Virus record (IMG/VR): IMGVR_UViG_2737471846_000027
Span: 1 to 12,108 of that record
Source: a virus
Taxonomy: Duplodnaviria > Heunggongvirae > Uroviricota > Caudoviricetes
DNA: 12,108 nt
Strand: one strand, 5' to 3'
Below, piece by piece: positions 6,617 through 12,108 of the stretch. The number at the start of each line of letters is the position of its first letter. Positions within the stretch are counted from its first letter, which is position 1. Both the position numbers and the translations under genes were made by a program. The notes under the pieces are model-generated. The model did not search any database. It saw only the letters and a program-made list of their open reading frames with translations, and was not told where the DNA came from.

Positions 6617-8371
6617 TTATAAAAACGCGTCGCAATCGTCTGTTGTAATTGCGTTGGTCTGCGTTACTCCCTTAACTTTTCGCGTAATATATTCATGCCC
6701 GTAAACTTTCGCCGCTGGCTTCATGGCCTTGCTGAACTCAGCCACGTTTAGCGGTTTGCTCCTGCCTGCGTATGCCATAAACGCCAGATAGACGCGGTAA
6801 AGGCTGTTCCTGGTCGTGTACTTCACTGAATCGCCACCGCCGCCCATCATCAGGCCGCGTGCTTCCTCCAGAAAATTCAGGAACTGGCAAAACTCAATAA
6901 CCGGATCCGTCTGTTGCTTTATTGCCAGAGCTTCATCACCGTCACGCTGTTCCAGTAGTAAAGCCCGTGCCTTCTCAGGGTCGGTAAAGTTCGCCAGCAA
7001 TCGGCGGATAATGACAGGGATTTCAGCCGCAATCTTTTCCGGTAGCTCCCTGTCTTTTTCGGCCTCACTGACGATATTGTCGAAACGGAAAATTACGCGA
7101 CGACGTGACACACCTCCGGCCCGTTCGGTGAATATCATCGGGTTATTGTTGGTAGCCAGCACCACCGCCCTGATTACCGCCGTAAAACGCTTCTCATATT
7201 TCGGGTTAATTTCCACGGGGTCGCCGCCCGTGATTTTCTTGATGCCCGTTCCTTCGCCTGTATATTTCGGCTGGTCAGCTAGGACGATAAGACGACTCCC
7301 GACAACCTGCGCACGTCCACCAGCATCATCAAGCGATGTCATTTCAGCGCTTACCGTGTTCTGTTTCCCTGCCAGAAGGCTGGCTATGTGTGTGAATGTA
7401 CTTTTACCGCTCCCGCCGTCTCCGGTGGCCTCAATAAACATCTGCCAGTCGTACCGGTTCGCCATAATCATGTACAGCGCGGCACATATACGCATCATCT
7501 TGCGCGGGTCTTTTCCGGCTGCGTGCTCAAGCCATTTATGAAAGTTTGGCGCGTTGTCGCGGATATTCTCCCCTGGTGCTGGTGGCGTGTACTCAATGCC
7601 GTTGTGCGTGGTGATCCAGTTCTCCGGCGTGTGCGGGGAAAATTCCCCCGTTTTCAGGTCAAGCGCACCATTGGCGAACGGCAGCAAATCGCCGGACGGC
7701 TCGCCCATTGGTTCGGCAATAACTTTTAACGCTTCCACGGCGTTATTGATTACGCGCTTGCTGAAAGTGGCCCTGTGCTCTGAATAGATCGCCACCATTT
7801 CGCGGCTAAGTTCCATTGTGCTGACCGGACACCATACCCCGCCGCGCCATACGTGAACAATTTCACTTTCAGGATGTACGCAAACGCCATCAAAGCGATC
7901 GGCAAGCAGCTGCGCGCGCTCACTGTCCGCCATCTGCGAAAGTTGCGCCTTTTGCTTTACCGGAAGCTCAATGACCAGACCATCAGAAAGATTCTGGCGT
8001 TCACGGGCCAGGTATTCGCGCCAGTTCTGCACCTCCTTGCCGTGCATACCCTCAGGATAAAAATTTGCATCCTGTACACCAGCCGCCGCCAGCTTTTGAC
8101 CAATCGCCTTTATCATTACTGGTGCAAGATATCCGGCCCTGAATATGCGCACGGATTTTCTGCCTTCCGGCACAATTTGCAGCTTATCCAGTTCTGATAA
8201 CTGCTGCTCCCCAAGCCACACAGGAGGCTCATTATCTCCGGCCATACGCGCGTCATGTTCCTGCCATTGTTTTGCGTGTGACCAGGCATCACTACCCGCA
8301 AAAATAATGACTTCTGTTTCTTTGTGTTTTATGCCGCGTGACTGCTGTTTTACGTTCGGTGCCAGTTTCAT
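6617..8371 (-). CDS. Replication initiation primase/helicase, phage/plasmid P4-family (D5-like NTPase domain)
   Basis: The 584-aa ORF has a Walker A motif GDGGSGKST in its C-terminal half and overall resemblance to the pri-rep proteins of P4-like and PICI elements. Iterons follow immediately downstream. Confidence 0.9.
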   Translation of the reverse strand: MKLAPNVKQQSRGIKHKETEVIIFAGSDAWSHAKQWQEHDARMAGDNEPPVWLGEQQLSELDKLQIVPEGRKSVRIFRAGYLAPVMIKAIGQKLAAAGVQDANFYPEGMHGKEVQNWREYLARERQNLSDGLVIELPVKQKAQLSQMADSERAQLLADRFDGVCVHPESEIVHVWRGGVWCPVSTMELSREMVAIYSEHRATFSKRVINNAVEALKVIAEPMGEPSGDLLPFANGALDLKTGEFSPHTPENWITTHNGIEYTPPAPGENIRDNAPNFHKWLEHAAGKDPRKMMRICAALYMIMANRYDWQMFIEATGDGGSGKSTFTHIASLLAGKQNTVSAEMTSLDDAGGRAQVVGSRLIVLADQPKYTGEGTGIKKITGGDPVEINPKYEKRFTAVIRAVVLATNNNPMIFTERAGGVSRRRVIFRFDNIVSEAEKDRELPEKIAAEIPVIIRRLLANFTDPEKARALLLEQRDGDEALAIKQQTDPVIEFCQFLNFLEEARGLMMGGGGDSVKYTTRNSLYRVYLAFMAYAGRSKPLNVAEFSKAMKPAAKVYGHEYITRKVKGVTQTNAITTDDCDAFL

Positions 8372-8667
8372 TTTTTACCCCTGAATACGTTAAGCATCTT
8401 TTTTATTTCCTGAATATTGGCGCGTGCTTTCTCCCTGCTGGTGGGCTTGCTGCGTTGCGCTGCCTGCACCAGAGAAAAATCACGGTCGAACTGATAAACG
8501 GGCATCACGCAATCATATTCGTAACCTTCACGGCGGTAAGTTACGCGCCGTTCCTCCACGCCCTTAATCATTACCGTGCCGCCGTACTGGTCGCGGTAAA
8601 TATCACCGCGCATGAATTTAGTGCGAGTTTTGCCACTGGCAGTTAAGCCAGAATATTTAAGTTTCAT
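8368..8667 (-). CDS. Hypothetical protein (99 aa), translationally coupled to the primase gene
   Basis: ATGA overlap with the primase start and a GGAGA Shine-Dalgarno. No family recognised. Confidence 0.5.
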   Translation of the reverse strand: MKLKYSGLTASGKTRTKFMRGDIYRDQYGGTVMIKGVEERRVTYRREGYEYDCVMPVYQFDRDFSLVQAAQRSKPTSREKARANIQEIKKMLNVFRGKK

Positions 8668-8672
8668 TATTT

Positions 8673-8900
8673 TTATTCTCCGGTGTGGGGCGCGTTATTA
8701 TTTTCGTGAATTGCCATTGCCTTATCCAGTTCATCAATAACAGGCGATAGTAATGTCTGAATGGCTGCAAACATTAAGGCACCTGATTCCTTACCACCTT
8801 CCGGCACTTCAATTAATTTAATTAACAACGCATTCATTTCGCGCGCTTTAATTAATGCGTTTTCAGAGTGGATTAATACTTCAAAAGGGATTTTATTCAT
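8673..8900 (-). CDS. Hypothetical protein (75 aa from ATG 8900; the ORF track extends to 8945)
   Basis: GAGGGT Shine-Dalgarno 6 nt before the internal ATG at 8900. It starts 2 nt after the upstream ORF stop. Confidence 0.45.
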   Translation of the reverse strand: MNKIPFEVLIHSENALIKAREMNALLIKLIEVPEGGKESGALMFAAIQTLLSPVIDELDKAMAIHENNNAPHTGE

Positions 8901-9129
8901 GGCGTACCCTCTGAATATCTGCGGTAAGAATTTTACCTGCCTCATTCAGTGCCATATCAGCACTAAGTTGCATAACCGCCAGCGAATGAGGGACGAAAGC
9001 CCCGGCATATTCTGTTTCGCTGGTGGCGTGCTTATGTGCCCTGTCCGCGATAACAGAAATATCAATCAGCGCGTGCATCAGCGTTTTGATGGCTTCGGCG
9101 GCTGCGTCCGGTGTGGTTTTATTGTGCAT
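8893..9129 (-). CDS. Hypothetical protein (78 aa)
   Basis: GGGGA Shine-Dalgarno. Its start overlaps the end of the upstream ORF (coupled). Confidence 0.45.
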   Translation of the reverse strand: MHNKTTPDAAAEAIKTLMHALIDISVIADRAHKHATSETEYAGAFVPHSLAVMQLSADMALNEAGKILTADIQRVRHE

Positions 9130-9331
9130 AAAGCATCCCCTGAATATTCGTGTTAATCATTCCGGCACGTTTTGTGATTTCCTGTAATGATTCCCTTGTG
9201 GCGACAATTGCTTCATCTGGTAAGTGGTAATTACACACCACGCGACCTTTATCCACATTGACCAGTAGCTGCCCTGTGAATTTCTCACGAAACTGAATGC
9301 GGTTAAGGTCAGTAAGTGACAGATTAATCAT
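9119..9331 (-). CDS. Hypothetical protein (70 aa from ATG 9331, MINLSL...)
   Basis: Its start overlaps the stop of the upstream 65-aa ORF (ATGATTAA). It is part of a tightly packed small-gene array. Confidence 0.45.
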   Translation of the reverse strand: MINLSLTDLNRIQFREKFTGQLLVNVDKGRVVCNYHLPDEAIVATRESLQEITKRAGMINTNIQGMLYAQ

Positions 9332-9521
9332 GGCGCACCTCCTGACGAATACGGGCGGCAAATACAGCAACACAACCGGACGGGCAACGGTTACGCGCTT
9401 CGCGTTCCGTCCAGGCGGTTACGTGGATGATTTGAGATTCTCCGGCACTCAGTGCCAGAAAACGCCACACAAAGGCCGTTTGTGTGTGTACAAGGTGTGG
9501 TATATGATTTACGGCAACCAT
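9324..9521 (-). CDS. Hypothetical protein (65 aa), first gene of the leftward operon
   Basis: AGGAG Shine-Dalgarno 5 nt before ATG 9521. This is the only plausible part of the 314-aa ORF 9324..10268, whose upstream portion runs through the operator region and a plus-strand gene. Confidence 0.4.
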   Translation of the reverse strand: MVAVNHIPHLVHTQTAFVWRFLALSAGESQIIHVTAWTEREARNRCPSGCVAVFAARIRQEVRHD

Positions 9522-9611
9522 AACGGCTCCTAGTTTACGTTGTTGGTTAGACGCCCCGTATGTGTTCCCAGCACTGCGGGGCGTTGATTTTTGTGTAATG
9601 GCAAGTACAAT

Positions 9612-9658
9612 GGTAATTACCATGTAGGTATAGTAATAAAGGGTAATTACCATGTCAA
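9612..9658 (-). promoter_or_regulatory. Leftward operon promoter (-35 TTGACA, 17-bp spacer, -10 TACTAT) with two identical palindromic operators GGTAATTACC (9612–9621 and 9642–9651)
   Basis: On the minus strand, TTGACA lies at 9658–9653 and TACTAT at 9635–9630. One perfect 10-bp palindrome sits in the spacer and the second just downstream of the -10. The second operator also abuts the ATG of the RHH gene. Confidence 0.55.
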
Positions 9659-9825
9659 CACCATTAGAAAAACGTTCGCCTCCATACCAAATGCGATTAC
9701 CGGAAGACTTCAGAGCGCAGCTAGAAGAAGCAGCTAAGGCCGATGGCGACACATCTTTAGCCACTTGGATTAAACGCGTTCTCCGCAAAGAATTACAGCA
9801 ACGCGGCATAGAACCCAAAGGATAA
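9652..9825 (+). CDS. Arc/MetJ-type ribbon-helix-helix transcriptional regulator (57 aa), candidate island repressor; not in the supplied ORF track
   Basis: The translation MSTPLEKRSPPYQMRLPEDFRAQLEEAAKADGDTSLATWIKRVLRKELQQRGIEPKG has the Arc signature: a beta-strand (YQMRLP), helix A, a G-x-T/S turn and helix B. The gene diverges from the leftward operon across the operator pair. Confidence 0.65.
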   Translation: MSTPLEKRSPPYQMRLPEDFRAQLEEAAKADGDTSLATWIKRVLRKELQQRGIEPKG

Positions 9826-9882
9826 AAACTATCAGCGCCGTGGTGTGAGGTATTACGGCGCATTGCTATGCAGGACAACACA

Positions 9883-10056
9883 ATGACCGATAAAGAATTG
9901 ACCAAAACATTATCACCGGCACGGAAAAGACGGCGCAGAAAGATAGAGCATGAATCAGAAAGATTCGCGCCATGTGCTTTTGCCCTTGAGCAATTCCTTA
10001 AAGAGTACAGGGAAACGCGCCCATTGCAGGTATGGCAACGAACTGAACCAGACTGA
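9883..10056 (+). CDS. Hypothetical small basic protein (57 aa from ATG 9883; the ORF track starts at 9868)
   Basis: It follows the RHH gene on the same strand, with an AGGA about 9 nt before ATG 9883, and precedes the plus-strand terminator. It carries an RKRRRRK basic patch. Weak call. Confidence 0.3.
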   Translation: MTDKELTKTLSPARKRRRRKIEHESERFAPCAFALEQFLKEYRETRPLQVWQRTEPD

Positions 10057-10150
10057 TAGCATTGCCCACCAGCCTGATAGCGGCTATCATCCCCGTGCTT
10101 ATGTTTGGGATCATATACACATAAGGCGCAGCGGGTTATCTGTTCAGAAA

Positions 10151-10179
10151 GGCGGCTCCATTTCGGGGCCGCTTTTTTT
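10151..10179 (+). terminator. Rho-independent terminator ending the RHH operon (possibly bidirectional, also serving alpA)
   Basis: An 8-bp GC-rich stem (GCGGCTCC/GGGGCCGC, one G-U pair), a 5-nt loop and a T7 run. Confidence 0.6.
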
Positions 10180-10325
10180 ATGCCTGAAAAACCCCAATTT
10201 TGTGGTTTTCCAGTCTCACCAGGGCGAACGAATCCCCGCCCACGTTCTGGCGTATATTCAATCTTCATGGTTATAGCTCTGTGTTCAGATGATTGATGTG
10301 TGGCGGCTGTGTGCCGCCAGCGTGA

Positions 10326-10514
10326 TTAATGAACTGCCTTGCAGCTATCCTTCCAGGCCAGAACCTCGGATAAAGACCAGCCAACGGAACGACCGCCAAG
10401 TTTACGACGTGATGGGAATTGTCCGGCCTTTTCCAGGCGGTAGCGACACGTACGGCTAAGGCCGGTTAGTTTTTCGCATTCTTTTTCACGTATAAACCGA
10501 TCAGTGCTTAACAC
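10326..10514 (-). CDS. alpA: AlpA-family phage transcriptional regulator / excisionase-like protein
   Basis: The 62-aa product shares the AlpA pattern with CP4-57 AlpA as I recall it (LTGLSRTCRYRL...FPSRRKLGGRSVGWSLSEVLAW versus TGMARATIYDWL...FPKKRMLGVKSVGWIEAEIDEW). It has a GTG start with a GGGGG Shine-Dalgarno. Confidence 0.85.
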   Translation of the reverse strand: MLSTDRFIREKECEKLTGLSRTCRYRLEKAGQFPSRRKLGGRSVGWSLSEVLAWKDSCKAVH

Positions 10515-10878
10515 TATTGCCCCCTTTCGTTTCTTAAAGAGTCATCAGGTGTCTTATTGTGTCGTATTGTTCCCGCTAGAGTGATGAATGGCAAATACTG
10601 AGGATGTATGATTTACAGAAAATGAAAAAGTAAGAATAAAATCTTTTAAATTCATGTTAATACAAAGGCATAAAATATTGTTCCATGCCTTTTTTCTCGC
10701 TCTTTAAAGAGTGATTCGCTAGTGTATAAAAAACCAGCAACACATTAAAAATCAGCTACTTATAAATCCGTACGCTTTTTCGCCTCTTGTTCGTAGTTGT
10801 TCCACATTGTTGCTCATTGTTGCACGTTGTATCTGTTCGCATATCCAGTATGCGCATACTGAAAAAACACGAAAAAAA

Positions 10879-12108
10879 TTATTTTCTTCTGGCTACTGGT
10901 AGCGTGGTTACGTTTTCATGTGTTCCCGCCAGTATCCCTAACCGCTCCGTCCACATATCCAGCGCATTGCGTTTCGCATCCAGATAACGGGAATGATTAT
11001 AAACTCGCTGCATTCCTGGCATCTGGTGGCCTGTAAGCTGCTCCACGACATGCGGATCAACGCCTAAATCGTTCAGCATGGTTGTAAAGGTGCGCCGGAT
11101 GTCATGCAGTGACCAGTGAGGGTGATTAAGCCTCCTGTGCGCTAATCTTCCATACTGCGATACGCTGGCCTCCTGTTTCACTTCCCCCAGCAATAAGCCC
11201 GTGTGCCTGTTCTGCTCCACCAGCTGCGTGATGAACGGCAGTATTGCTTCCGGTATAGGCCGGAATATGGCTACCTTCGTTTTGCTGTGCTCCTTCGGAA
11301 CGGTCCAGAGCATTTCGGTAAAATCCCACTCGCTGATCTCCGATAACCTCAGTTCTACCGTCCGGCATCCGAACACAATCAGGAGGCGGATTAACGCGAT
11401 GTAGTAGGGGGAGAATATTTTTTTGTCCAGTGCCTGCAATAATTCGCCCAGTTCTTTGGTGCTTAAGACACGCTCGCTTATATCCGGTTTTTTCCCAACG
11501 TCCGCCACACTCATATCATCAAGAACGTTGCTGATTGCATAGCGCCGCCTCCGGCAGAACTTAAGCGCCTGTTTGCACGTCTGTAGCAAGAATCCGGCAG
11601 TAACAGGCGTTCGCTTTGCCACCTGGTCAAAACAGGCCAGCCAGTGCCGTAGCTCGCATTTATCCAGCGGCATAGCACCAATGTGCTGTATTACGTGATT
11701 ATTAAGGCGCTTTTTCAGGGCGGCATAATCCACGCGGTTTTCCTTTGCGTACGACTCAAGCCAGTAGGTGAGCGCATCGCCAACCGTTACCGGCTTTAAC
11801 GCTTCCTGTACGGTGTAATTAAGCTCATGACGTGGATTTTTCCCCTCTGCCAGCCATGCGCGACACTGGGCGGCTTTTTCCCTGGCTGATTTCAGGCTCA
11901 GATCAGGATAATTTCCCAGCTTAATGCGTTCCGGTGGTGCCCCCCTTCCCGTTCCGGCCCTGTAAGTGAAATACCAGGTTAAAAGGCCACTGGTTGAATG
12001 CCTGACGCTCAGGTTTCCACCGTCATTAAGAAAGGCTGTTTTTTGGGCGGGTGTGCCGTTGATTTTCCTCAGCTGTGTATCGCTCAGTTTGTTAAGTGCT
12101 CTGCTCAT
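10879..12108 (-). CDS. int: Tyrosine site-specific integrase, P4-like family; start codon at the last base of the window
   Basis: The 409-aa product has an N-terminal arm-binding-type region and a C-terminal catalytic domain with R...HxxR...Y residues (HDIRRT, LTGH, YNHSRY). Confidence 0.95.
   Translation of the reverse strand: MSRALNKLSDTQLRKINGTPAQKTAFLNDGGNLSVRHSTSGLLTWYFTYRAGTGRGAPPERIKLGNYPDLSLKSAREKAAQCRAWLAEGKNPRHELNYTVQEALKPVTVGDALTYWLESYAKENRVDYAALKKRLNNHVIQHIGAMPLDKCELRHWLACFDQVAKRTPVTAGFLLQTCKQALKFCRRRRYAISNVLDDMSVADVGKKPDISERVLSTKELGELLQALDKKIFSPYYIALIRLLIVFGCRTVELRLSEISEWDFTEMLWTVPKEHSKTKVAIFRPIPEAILPFITQLVEQNRHTGLLLGEVKQEASVSQYGRLAHRRLNHPHWSLHDIRRTFTTMLNDLGVDPHVVEQLTGHQMPGMQRVYNHSRYLDAKRNALDMWTERLGILAGTHENVTTLPVARRK

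What the first reader, a model, noticed from the sequence alone, without database searches (positions are those of the whole stretch)
8368..9521. Translationally coupled array of five small ORFs (65–99 aa) between the regulatory switch and the primase, with no recognisable families
In satellites this position often holds helper-interaction, anti-defence or induction-sensing factors. The ORFs overlap or abut each other with good Shine-Dalgarno sequences, so they look like real genes, but I cannot assign functions from sequence alone.
Basis: inference. Interest (0 to 1): 0.4.

Follow-up and report, generated by a model that had tools for sequence, protein, structure and literature searches.

The report
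Small-gene early operon of a PICI
These are five real, tightly coupled small genes at the head of the replication operon of an E. coli phage satellite (an EcCICFT073-type PICI); the first is a relative of the phage P1 cell-division inhibitor Icd and the last is the published virulence and motility regulator RgdR, so the array is an ordinary, already annotated part of a known island family whose three middle genes remain uncharacterised.

Summary
Five minus-strand ORFs (65, 70, 78, 75 and 99 aa) fill 8368-9521. They overlap by 8, 11 and 8 nt, then leave a 5-nt gap. The last stop overlaps the primase start (ATGA). Each has a Shine-Dalgarno sequence.

The claim of "no recognisable families" is wrong for two ORFs. 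ORF1 is an Icd-like protein (NCBIfam NF033153, E=5e-18; 37% identical to P1 Icd). ORF5 is DUF4222 and 95% identical to RgdR (ECs1581) of E. coli O157 Sakai, with the RGD motif intact. RgdR is a published activator of LEE1 and repressor of motility. ORF2-4 fall in PHROG families of unknown function found only in Escherichia and Shigella.

The window is a PICI at the same phoQ-side site and with the same layout as EcCICFT073. Across 11 islands the array always starts with Icd-like. In 10 of 11 it ends with an ORF4-family gene, then RgdR, then the replicase. The middle genes are exchanged as cassettes. dN/dS of 0.15-0.48 supports coding.

ORF4 models as a generic two-helix hairpin. The ORF2 model failed. 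No defence, PDB or Rfam match was found.

Verdict: a real, ordinary early operon. It is a new member of a known kind and of modest interest.

The parts
9324..9521 (-). ORF1, 65 aa: Icd-like leader gene of the array
   Evidence: NCBIfam NF033153 phage_ICD_like E=5.2e-18, 64.8 bits against a cutoff of 25. phrog_29966 and phrog_1743. 37% identity over 52 aa to P1 Icd, E=2e-7. SD AGGAG lies 5 nt before the ATG. Annotated as Icd-like in RefSeq loci.
9119..9331 (-). ORF2, 70 aa: phrog_340 family, function unknown; a short form of a family that also has 121-aa members
   Evidence: phrog_340 E=1e-23. 29 clusters, all Escherichia. Alignment A1 shows the short and long forms. dN/dS 0.31 against L009. 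AF2 pLDDT 52, so the model is not usable.
8893..9129 (-). ORF3, 78 aa: phrog_5146 family, function unknown; fused to phrog_24341 as a 154-aa protein in other islands
   Evidence: phrog_5146 E=8e-36 and phrog_2512 residues 1-73 of 154. 229 clusters, E. coli and E. albertii. dN/dS 0.20-0.25.
8673..8900 (-). ORF4, 75 aa: phrog_2196 family, two-helix hairpin; conserved neighbour of RgdR
   Evidence: phrog_2196 E=1.5e-8. 39% identity to the CFT073 gene in the same position, and that gene is related to the Sakai one. AF2 pLDDT 81 with helices 6-30 and 36-68. No significant fold match. dN/dS 0.17.
8368..8667 (-). ORF5, 99 aa: RgdR orthologue (DUF4222); stop codon overlaps the primase ATG
   Evidence: Pfam DUF4222 E=5.4e-24. 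95% identity to RgdR/ECs1581 of Sakai. R20-G21-D22 and K35 are present in the sequence. dN/dS 0.15-0.46.
6617..8371 (-). Primase/helicase (pri-rep), the gene the array is coupled into
   Evidence: D5_N, DUF5906 and Pox_D5. TIGR01613 P4-family primase C-terminal domain, 109.1 bits against a cutoff of 108.7. 98% identical to the CFT073 primase.
9338..9351 (-). Junction motif TATTCGTCAGGAGG (SD of ORF2 inside the 3' end of ORF1)
   Evidence: Read from the sequence. The same motif follows Icd-like genes in the other islands.
9137..9146 (-). Junction motif TATTCAGGGG (ORF2/ORF3)
   Evidence: Pattern found 3 times in the window, only at junctions, against 0.04 expected.
8908..8917 (-). Junction motif TATTCAGAGG (ORF3/ORF4)
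8378..8387 (-). Junction motif TATTCAGGGG (ORF5/primase)
   Evidence: matched (as ATTCAGGGG) at this junction in 9 of the 10 other islands, all but L005.
9522..9658 (-). Leader and candidate promoter of the array: -35 TTGACA 9658-9653 and -10 TACTAT 9635-9630. It overlaps two ATGGTAATTACCAT palindromes (9610-9623, 9641-9654). A hairpin lies at 9551-9584.
   Evidence: Consensus scan, 10 of 12 matches. Repeats. Fold. Function not tested.
10326..10514 (-). alpA, the activator that drives downstream island genes in EcCICFT073
   Evidence: Pfam Phage_AlpA E=5e-17. 94% identical to CFT073 AlpA. Role described in PMC6092414.

Best explanation
The five ORFs are the promoter-proximal part of the early (replication) operon of an EcCICFT073-type Gram-negative PICI integrated next to phoQ.

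Proposed course of events:
1. Transcription comes from the alpA side and/or from the sigma-70-like promoter at 9658-9630. It runs through ORF1-5 into the primase.
2. Overlapping stop and start codons, with SD sequences embedded in the 3' end of each upstream gene, couple translation from the Icd-like leader down to the primase.
3. ORF1, by homology with P1 Icd, blocks host cell division when the island is switched on.
4. ORF5 is RgdR, a small basic protein that binds DNA weakly. It changes host transcription (LEE1 up, motility down) and is always made together with the replicase.
5. ORF4 is a two-helix hairpin protein that nearly always accompanies RgdR.
6. ORF2 and ORF3 are exchangeable accessory cassettes of unknown function.

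Shown here: gene structure, family membership, synteny, purifying selection and cassette mosaicism.

Shown in the literature for orthologues: the RgdR phenotypes, and AlpA-dependent expression of island genes in EcCICFT073.

Inferred: the single transcript, the functional translational coupling, cell-division inhibition by ORF1, and any role of ORF2-4.
For: Island identity:
- The window carries int, alpA, primase, SSB, a lambda E-like capsid gene, a D-like decoration gene and a Nu1-like TerS.
- The order and the phoQ-side position match EcCICFT073.
- The array is 99.6% identical to a RefSeq locus annotated Icd-like / 3 hypothetical / DUF4222 / primase.

Families:
- ORF1 matches NF033153 and aligns with P1 Icd.
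- In P1, icd overlaps ant1 by 4 nt and is noted as required for ant expression.
- ORF5 is DUF4222 and 95% identical to RgdR, with the RGD motif kept.
- RgdR deletion and complementation phenotypes are in PMC3378721.
- RgdR is reported in all analysed E. coli PICIs (PMC6092414).

Coupling:
- Overlaps of 8, 11, 8 and 4 nt, each with an SD.
- The RgdR stop overlaps the replicase ATG in 10 of 11 islands, whether the replicase is of the primase, RepA or DUF927 type.
- Terminator-like sites in the wider region do not exceed shuffles: 7 found against 5.1 expected.

Selection:
- dN/dS is 0.15-0.48.
- In the pairs tested, the named frame is the only stop-free frame and has the lowest or joint-lowest dN/dS.

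Expression:
- AlpA activates downstream EcCICFT073 genes (PMC6092414).
Against: - There are no expression data for this island. The promoter used is unresolved. An oppositely oriented RHH gene pair lies between alpA and the array, so read-through from alpA would be antisense to it.
- The Icd assignment rests on 37% identity over 52 residues. No C4-type antisense RNA, which controls icd in P1, was found.
- The role of RgdR in the PICI life cycle itself has never been tested. Its LEE phenotype cannot be its purpose in strains without LEE.
- ORF2-4 have no informative homologue. The ORF2 model was poor. The ORF4 fold is generic.
- Coupling is inferred from geometry only.
Confidence: 0.7

Rival explanations
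1. ORF2-4, and the alternative cassettes found at this position in other islands, would be helper-specific factors: induction sensors, anti-helper factors or anti-defence factors. The island would swap them to match the phages or defence systems it meets.
For: - The middle of the array is mosaic. At least seven small-gene families occur in varying number (1 to 5) between constant Icd-like and RgdR ends.
- Homology blocks between islands end at gene junctions.
- The families are confined to Escherichia and Shigella satellites and are absent from 50,697 phage records at the DNA level.
- From my own knowledge, P4 carries its helper-derepressing epsilon gene in the equivalent early operon upstream of its primase.
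Against: - There is no homology to any known anti-defence, defence or helper-binding protein.
- Cassette exchange alone is also typical of neutral modular recombination in mobile elements.
- dN/dS shows ordinary purifying selection, not diversifying selection.
- The one tested gene of the array acts on host genes.
Confidence: 0.2
2. The array contains a toxin-antidote pair. The Icd-like protein would be a growth-arresting toxin held in check by the overlapping ORF2 product, serving island maintenance or abortive infection.
For: - P1 Icd stops cell division (record note).
- ORF1 and ORF2 overlap by 8 nt, as many toxin-antitoxin pairs do.
Against: - ORF2 is not the constant partner of Icd-like. 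In other islands the gene after Icd-like belongs to other families (phrog_1478, phrog_5146, the Sakai 61-aa family).
- Pfam, NCBIfam and PADLOC gave no toxin-antitoxin match.
- The ORF2 model is unreliable.
Confidence: 0.05
3. ORF1 is not a 65-aa protein. It would be the C-terminal domain of the 314-aa ORF 9324-10268, which reads antisense through the RHH gene pair.
For: - The frame is open for 314 codons.
- Similar long in-frame ORFs exist in most islands.
- About two thirds of the listed Icd-like representatives (50%-identity clusters) are proteins of more than 150 aa with the domain at the extreme C-terminus.
Against: - Only residues 255-313 match any family.
- Only 14 of 95 long relatives carry a domain, Phage_ASH.
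- By recoding simulation the antisense frame stays open by chance with P of about 0.2.
- A good SD precedes the internal ATG.
- RefSeq calls the 65-aa gene and marks the upstream part as a pseudogene remnant.
- In Sakai a stop codon separates the two.
Confidence: 0.08

Closest known systems
EcCICFT073 (E. coli CFT073 PICI), genes between alpA and pri-rep, including C1493
   Same: - Same chromosomal side (phoQ).
- Same order: int, alpA, oppositely oriented YlcI-like pair, Icd-like gene, small ORFs, DUF4222, primase, SSB, capsid and decoration genes.
- Primase 98% identical, RgdR orthologue 84%, AlpA 94%.
   Different: - CFT073 has six array genes (Icd-like, phrog_1478, phrog_5146, phrog_24341, phrog_2196, DUF4222) against five here. 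Its Icd-like allele is only 46% identical.
- ORF2 (phrog_340) is absent from CFT073.
- The window has a Nu1-like TerS and no PerC gene.
CP-933C / O-island 51 / Sp7 of E. coli O157:H7, which carries rgdR (ECs1581)
   Same: - The Icd-like gene (95%) and RgdR (95%) bracket the array in the same way.
- RgdR overlaps the replicase start.
- Same integrase and alpA module.
   Different: - The three middle genes belong to other families or are distant. The Sakai 80-aa gene is only a remote ORF4 relative.
- The replicase is of DUF927 type.
- The packaging module is HK97-like.
Phage P1 immI operon (c4 RNA - icd - ant1/ant2)
   Same: - A small Icd protein gene leads the operon and overlaps the next gene by a few bases, so translation of the leader gates the downstream gene.
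- ORF1 is homologous to P1 Icd.
   Different: - No C4-type antisense RNA was detected.
- The downstream genes are small ORFs and a primase, not an antirepressor.
- The element is a satellite, not a phage.
Satellite phage P4 early (left) operon upstream of the alpha primase (from my own knowledge; not tested here)
   Same: - A run of small genes lies between the immunity/regulatory region and a P4-family primase. One of them (epsilon) acts on the helper.
- The primase matches TIGR01613.
   Different: - No sequence similarity of the five ORFs to P4 genes was seen.
- No P4-type cI RNA was found.
- Capsid genes are lambda E/D-like instead of sid, psu and delta.
- PMC6092414 argues that PICIs and P4 are separate lineages.

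Membership tests
Gram-negative PICI of the EcCICFT073 type | Integrase at one end, followed by alpA | tested here: met
   int 10879-12108 (Phage_integrase and Arm-DNA-bind_3). alpA 10326-10514 (Phage_AlpA E=5e-17).
Gram-negative PICI of the EcCICFT073 type | Primase/replication gene downstream of the regulatory region; no tail or lysis genes; size of about 10-15 kb | tested here: met
   Primase 6617-8371. The remaining ORFs are SSB, capsid E-like, D-like, Nu1-like and small unknowns. The island spans about 1462-12108, or 10.6 kb.
Gram-negative PICI of the EcCICFT073 type | Specific attachment site shared with characterised islands (between roxA and phoQ) | tested here: inconclusive
   The phoQ side is the same as in CFT073 and Sakai. 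The window ends at the int start codon, so the roxA side is not visible.
Gram-negative PICI of the EcCICFT073 type | Induction by a helper phage and high-frequency transfer | not testable with these tools
   Shown only for EcCICFT073 itself (PMC6092414).
Icd-like proteins (NCBIfam NF033153; prototype P1 Icd) | Match to the curated model above its cutoff | tested here: met
   64.8 bits against a cutoff of 25, E=5.2e-18.
Icd-like proteins (NCBIfam NF033153; prototype P1 Icd) | Direct similarity to P1 Icd | tested here: met
   37% identity over 52 aa, E=2e-7 in a pairwise comparison, including the F(I/V)WRF core.
Icd-like proteins (NCBIfam NF033153; prototype P1 Icd) | Leader position with stop/start overlap to the next gene | tested here: met
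   8-nt overlap with ORF2. P1 icd overlaps ant1 by 4 nt.
Icd-like proteins (NCBIfam NF033153; prototype P1 Icd) | Control by a C4-type antisense RNA | tested here: not met
   No C4, IsrK or other relevant Rfam match at E<=1 anywhere in the window.
Icd-like proteins (NCBIfam NF033153; prototype P1 Icd) | Inhibition of host cell division | not testable with these tools
   Needs induced expression and microscopy.
RgdR family (DUF4222, PF13973) | DUF4222 domain above the gathering score | tested here: met
   83.9 bits against a cutoff of 27, E=5.4e-24.
RgdR family (DUF4222, PF13973) | Full-length 99-aa form, closely similar to ECs1581 | tested here: met
   94 of 99 residues identical, no gaps.
RgdR family (DUF4222, PF13973) | RGD motif at residues 20-22 and K35, which are important for T3S activation (PMC3378721) | tested here: met
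   The sequence reads ...KFMRGDIY... and ...VMIKGV.... Requirement described.
RgdR family (DUF4222, PF13973) | Activates LEE1 and represses motility | not testable with these tools
   Shown for ECs1581 and C1493 only (PMC3378721).
Known anti-phage defence systems (PADLOC-DB) | Match of any array protein to a defence-system model | tested here: not met
   No family at E<=0.01 for the five ORFs or for five other small island proteins.
P4-like satellites | P4-family primase C-terminal domain | tested here: met
   TIGR01613, 109.1 bits against a cutoff of 108.7, which is borderline.
P4-like satellites | cI-type immunity RNA and the sid/psu/delta capsid-size and transactivation genes | tested here: not met
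   No Rfam match. The morphogenesis genes are lambda E-, D- and Nu1-like instead.

The most novel reading that the evidence does not exclude
The stretch between the constant Icd-like leader and the constant ORF4-RgdR-replicase core would be a dedicated cassette site. Small genes such as phrog_340, 5146, 24341 and 1478 would be swapped by recombination at a shared junction element of about 12 nt that contains the SD (TATTC(NN)CAGGGG). The cassettes would encode helper-specific or defence-specific effectors, so each island would carry a tailored early toolkit.
Probability: 0.15. Interest if true: 0.6.

Novelty: new member of a known kind. Interest (0 to 1): 0.3.

Why it matters
E. coli PICIs are widespread. 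Parts of this array occur in 1,320 of 5,426 complete genomes. These islands influence virulence through RgdR and PerC.

The genes made first after induction, upstream of the replicase, have never been tested for a role in the satellite life cycle. Only genes downstream of ori were screened in EcCICFT073 (PMC6739421).

Three results give concrete, cheap experiments:
- The array is bracketed by a P1 Icd homologue and RgdR.
- An ORF4-family hairpin protein travels with RgdR and the replicase in 10 of 11 islands.
- The middle genes are exchanged as cassettes.

The finding itself does not change what is known. It is a correctly spotted but ordinary operon.

Tried and rejected
1. A C4/IsrK-type antisense RNA upstream of the Icd-like gene, as in P1. 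Rfam found nothing relevant at E<=1.
2. A translation-sensitive terminator hairpin inside ORF1 (9466-9486). It is absent from diverged Icd-like alleles, so it is not a conserved element.
3. ORF3 and ORF4 as paralogous helical hairpins. hhalign probability was 0.75%.
4. The 314-aa in-frame extension of ORF1 as the real gene. Its N-terminal part matches no family. The antisense frame stays open by chance with P of about 0.2. Substitution patterns cannot discriminate, because the two frames share wobble positions. I judge it unlikely but not excluded.
5. Structure-based function. The ORF2 model had pLDDT 52 and was not searched. The ORF4 model is good (pLDDT 81), but Foldseek against PDB and BFVD gave no hit with E<1.
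6. PDB searches by sequence and by profile found nothing for any ORF.
7. Defence systems: no PADLOC hit.
8. Phage genomes. blastn of the array gave no match. tblastn of ORF1 and ORF5 each hit a single record. The ORF1 hit is a 16.5-kb record from an induced prophage. The proteins are satellite-borne rather than phage-borne.
9. Relatives outside Escherichia. A genome-contig scan with RgdR found only Shigella flexneri and E. albertii. This scan detects close relatives only.
10. Literature on the small ORFs. I found no functional test of any array gene except RgdR.
Full report
**Observation**

The region 8368-9521 holds five consecutive minus-strand ORFs:
- ORF1, 9324-9521, 65 aa.
- ORF2, 9119-9331, 70 aa from the ATG.
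- ORF3, 8893-9129, 78 aa.
- ORF4, 8673-8900, 75 aa from the ATG.
- ORF5, 8368-8667, 99 aa.

Neighbouring genes overlap by 8, 11 and 8 nt, and then leave a 5-nt gap. The ORF5 stop overlaps the ATG of the 584-aa primase (ATGA). Every start is preceded at 5-10 nt by a purine-rich SD: AGGAG, AGGAGG, AGGGGA, GAGGG, GGAG, and AGGGG for the primase. The shorter starts I use for ORF2 and ORF4 are those chosen by RefSeq in a 99.6% identical locus. They also fit the 70-aa and 75-aa lengths of the homologues.

**Context**

The window is a satellite of the EcCICFT073 type. Reading from the right on the minus strand it carries:
- an integrase (10879-12108);
- alpA (10326-10514);
- a plus-strand pair, an Arc/YlcI-like RHH gene at 9652-9825 and a 62-aa gene at 9868-10056;
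- the five ORFs;
- a D5_N/P4-type primase;
- a 104-aa gene and SSB;
- a 68-aa gene;
- a lambda E-like capsid gene and a D-like decoration gene;
- a Nu1-like small terminase;
- a 93-aa gene, and then chromosomal phoQ.

The CFT073 chromosome has the same order at the same phoQ-side position. That island is EcCICFT073, the experimentally characterised Gram-negative PICI (PMC6092414). O157 Sakai has a related island there as well, CP-933C/OI-51 (PMC3378721).

**Families**

The claim of "no recognisable families" does not hold.

ORF1 matches the curated NCBIfam model for Icd-like host cell division inhibitors (E=5e-18, well above cutoff). It aligns directly with P1 Icd (37% identity over 52 aa, E=2e-7). 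In P1, icd is the leader gene of the icd-ant operon. It overlaps ant1 by 4 nt, and the record notes it as required for ant expression.

ORF5 is a DUF4222 protein (E=5e-24) and 95% identical to RgdR/ECs1581. It keeps the RGD motif and K35, which were shown to matter for activity (PMC3378721). Published results on RgdR:
- RgdR activates the LEE1 promoter and so type III secretion, and it represses motility.
- It binds DNA weakly and non-specifically.
- Its deletion has a phenotype in uninduced EHEC.
- It is reported in all analysed E. coli PICIs (PMC6092414).

ORF2, ORF3 and ORF4 belong to PHROG families 340, 5146/2512 and 2196, all of unknown function. Their homologues (29, 229 and 95 clusters) come only from E. 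coli, Shigella and E. albertii. All are named hypothetical or prophage protein, and none has a Pfam domain.

**Are they genes?**

On pairs that are not saturated, dN/dS is:
- ORF1: 0.23-0.48
- ORF2: 0.31
- ORF3: 0.20-0.25
- ORF4: 0.17
- ORF5: 0.15-0.46

In a six-frame control on the same pairs, the named frame is the only stop-free one. It has the lowest or joint-lowest ratio for ORF2-5. The ORF1 pair has too few substitutions to be informative. The antisense frame that shares wobble positions scores similarly but contains stops. Together with the conserved lengths and the RgdR phenotypes, this makes all five real coding genes.

**Comparison of eleven islands**

I compared the window with L001-L010.
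- The array always begins with an Icd-like gene.
- In 10 of 11 islands it ends with an ORF4-family gene followed by RgdR. E. albertii lacks the ORF4-family gene.
- The RgdR stop overlaps the start of the replicase in 10 of 11 islands, whether that replicase is a primase, a RepA-type helicase or a DUF927 protein.
- The first ~125 residues of these different replicases are themselves 60-63% identical.
- Between the two ends, one to five small genes are drawn from at least seven families (phrog_340, 5146, 24341, 1478, a Sakai/E. albertii 61-aa family, a 154-aa protein with a second Icd-like domain, and others).
- Fusions and splits occur. phrog_5146 plus phrog_24341 form the 154-aa phrog_2512 protein, and a 121-aa long form of ORF2 exists.

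The exact five-gene combination of the window covers at least 80% of the query in only 32 of 5,426 complete E. coli genomes. Parts of it occur in 1,320 genomes.

Homology blocks between islands start and stop at the gene junctions. These junctions share a motif, TATTC(NN)CAGGGG, followed 5-8 nt later by the ATG. In the window, TATTCAGRGG occurs three times, only at junctions, against 0.04 expected. The other ten islands show junction-motif matches almost only on the sense strand and, with one loose exception, at gene junctions. The motif contains the SD of the downstream gene and encodes the C-terminal I/V-Q/R-G of the upstream protein. I read it as a conserved coupling signal that also offers short homology for cassette exchange. 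The second half of that reading is inference.

**Expression signals**

A 10-of-12 sigma-70-like promoter on the minus strand (-35 at 9658-9653, -10 at 9635-9630) overlaps two perfect ATGGTAATTACCAT palindromes. It faces a plus-strand promoter for the RHH gene. In EcCICFT073, AlpA activates its own promoter and is needed for expression of a downstream reporter (PMC6092414). Which promoter feeds the array here is unresolved. Terminator-like sites in the wider region scanned (6400-10900) are no more frequent than in shuffles. The one inside ORF1 is not conserved in diverged alleles.

**Attempts to assign function to ORF2-4**

All attempts failed in an informative way.
- PDB sequence and profile searches gave nothing.
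- PADLOC gave nothing.
- The AF2 model of ORF2 was unreliable (pLDDT 52).
- ORF4 is a confident two-helix hairpin (pLDDT 81), but the fold is generic, with no Foldseek hit at E<1 in PDB or BFVD.
- ORF3 and ORF4 are not detectably related.
- Phage genomes lack the array at the DNA level and almost entirely lack ORF1 and ORF5 at the protein level.
- I found no functional test of any array gene other than RgdR. The EcCICFT073 interference screen covered only genes downstream of ori (PMC6739421).

**Explanation**

The array is best explained as the promoter-proximal part of the PICI early operon. The Icd-like leader probably arrests host division on induction. Translation of the leader is chained through overlapping junctions down to the primase. 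The middle cassettes are exchangeable and of unknown function. At the distal end is a conserved ORF4-RgdR pair made together with the replicase.

Gene structure, family membership, synteny, selection and mosaicism are shown here. The RgdR and AlpA functions are shown in the literature for orthologues. The single transcript, effective coupling, the activity of ORF1 and any role of ORF2-4 are inferred.

A toxin-antidote reading and a 314-aa long form of ORF1 are less likely.

**Verdict**

The feature is real and was correctly delimited. It is an ordinary, already annotated module of a known island family. Two of its five genes belong to known families, and one of those has been studied experimentally. 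It is a new member of a known kind, and its interest is modest (0.3). Most of that interest lies in the untested early genes and in the cassette-like organisation with a shared junction motif.

Noticed in passing
window 9584-9658: Two perfect palindromes, ATGGTAATTACCAT (9610-9623 and 9641-9654), lie on face-to-face sigma-70-like promoters. These sit between the Arc/YlcI-like RHH gene (9652-9825, +) and the Icd-like leader gene. They look like an operator pair for the RHH protein, which could be a repressor of the PICI early operon. The literature says no such repressor is established for Gram-negative PICIs.
   Followed up: partly
window 9551-9594: The hairpin ACGCCCCG-N18-CGGGGCGT is followed on the plus strand by TGATTTTTGTG. 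It is terminator-like for transcripts antisense to the array. It belongs to a ~70-nt leader block conserved upstream of type-1 Icd-like genes in L001, L002 and L004. The fold z-score is only -1.7.
   Followed up: partly
window 9324-10268 (-): A 314-aa ORF is in frame with ORF1 and runs antisense through both plus-strand genes. Similar long in-frame ORFs (205-428 aa) exist in most related islands. About two thirds of the listed Icd-like representatives (50%-identity clusters) are longer proteins (>150 aa) with the domain at the extreme C-terminus, and only 14 of 95 have a Pfam domain (Phage_ASH). A recoding simulation gives P of about 0.2 for chance openness. This is probably a gene-calling artefact, but it is not settled.
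   Followed up: partly
window 6617-8371 (first ~125 codons, about 7997-8371): The N-terminal ~125 residues of the replicase are 60-63% identical across islands whose replicases are otherwise of different types (P4-type primase, RepA helicase, DUF927). RgdR plus this domain therefore form one conserved block.
   Followed up: partly
L001 10349-11530; L003 10243-10653; window 9652-10056: The YlcI/YnfO-like gene and its small partner gene are oriented opposite to alpA and the array. The pair is duplicated in tandem in strain STEC1587. In some RefSeq genomes the pair is not annotated, and a pseudogene on the other strand is called instead.
   Followed up: partly
L003 30192-30431: A second, shorter DUF4222 gene lies next to the excisionase remnants of a lambdoid prophage in CFT073. 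DUF4222 is therefore not restricted to PICIs.
   Followed up: no
window 2950-3504 vs L003 17084-18094: The window island encodes a Nu1-like small terminase (Phage_Nu1, E=2e-23). At the corresponding position the RefSeq annotation of EcCICFT073 shows two hypothetical proteins. The window also lacks the PerC gene present in CFT073 and Sakai.
   Followed up: no
window 2796-2901 (-): A long AT-rich hairpin lies between the 93-aa gene and the terminase gene. It gave only chance-level Rfam hits to miRNA and XIST models (E 0.3-0.5). It could be a terminator or a packaging-site structure.
   Followed up: no
L003 11050-11280 (CFT073): A Tn-seq study of CFT073 lists c1489, a hypothetical protein, among four genes whose disruption lowered ampicillin survival in both backgrounds tested (PMC5760743). 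By its number c1489 should be one of the array ORFs. I could not verify the mapping of the old locus tag.
   Followed up: no
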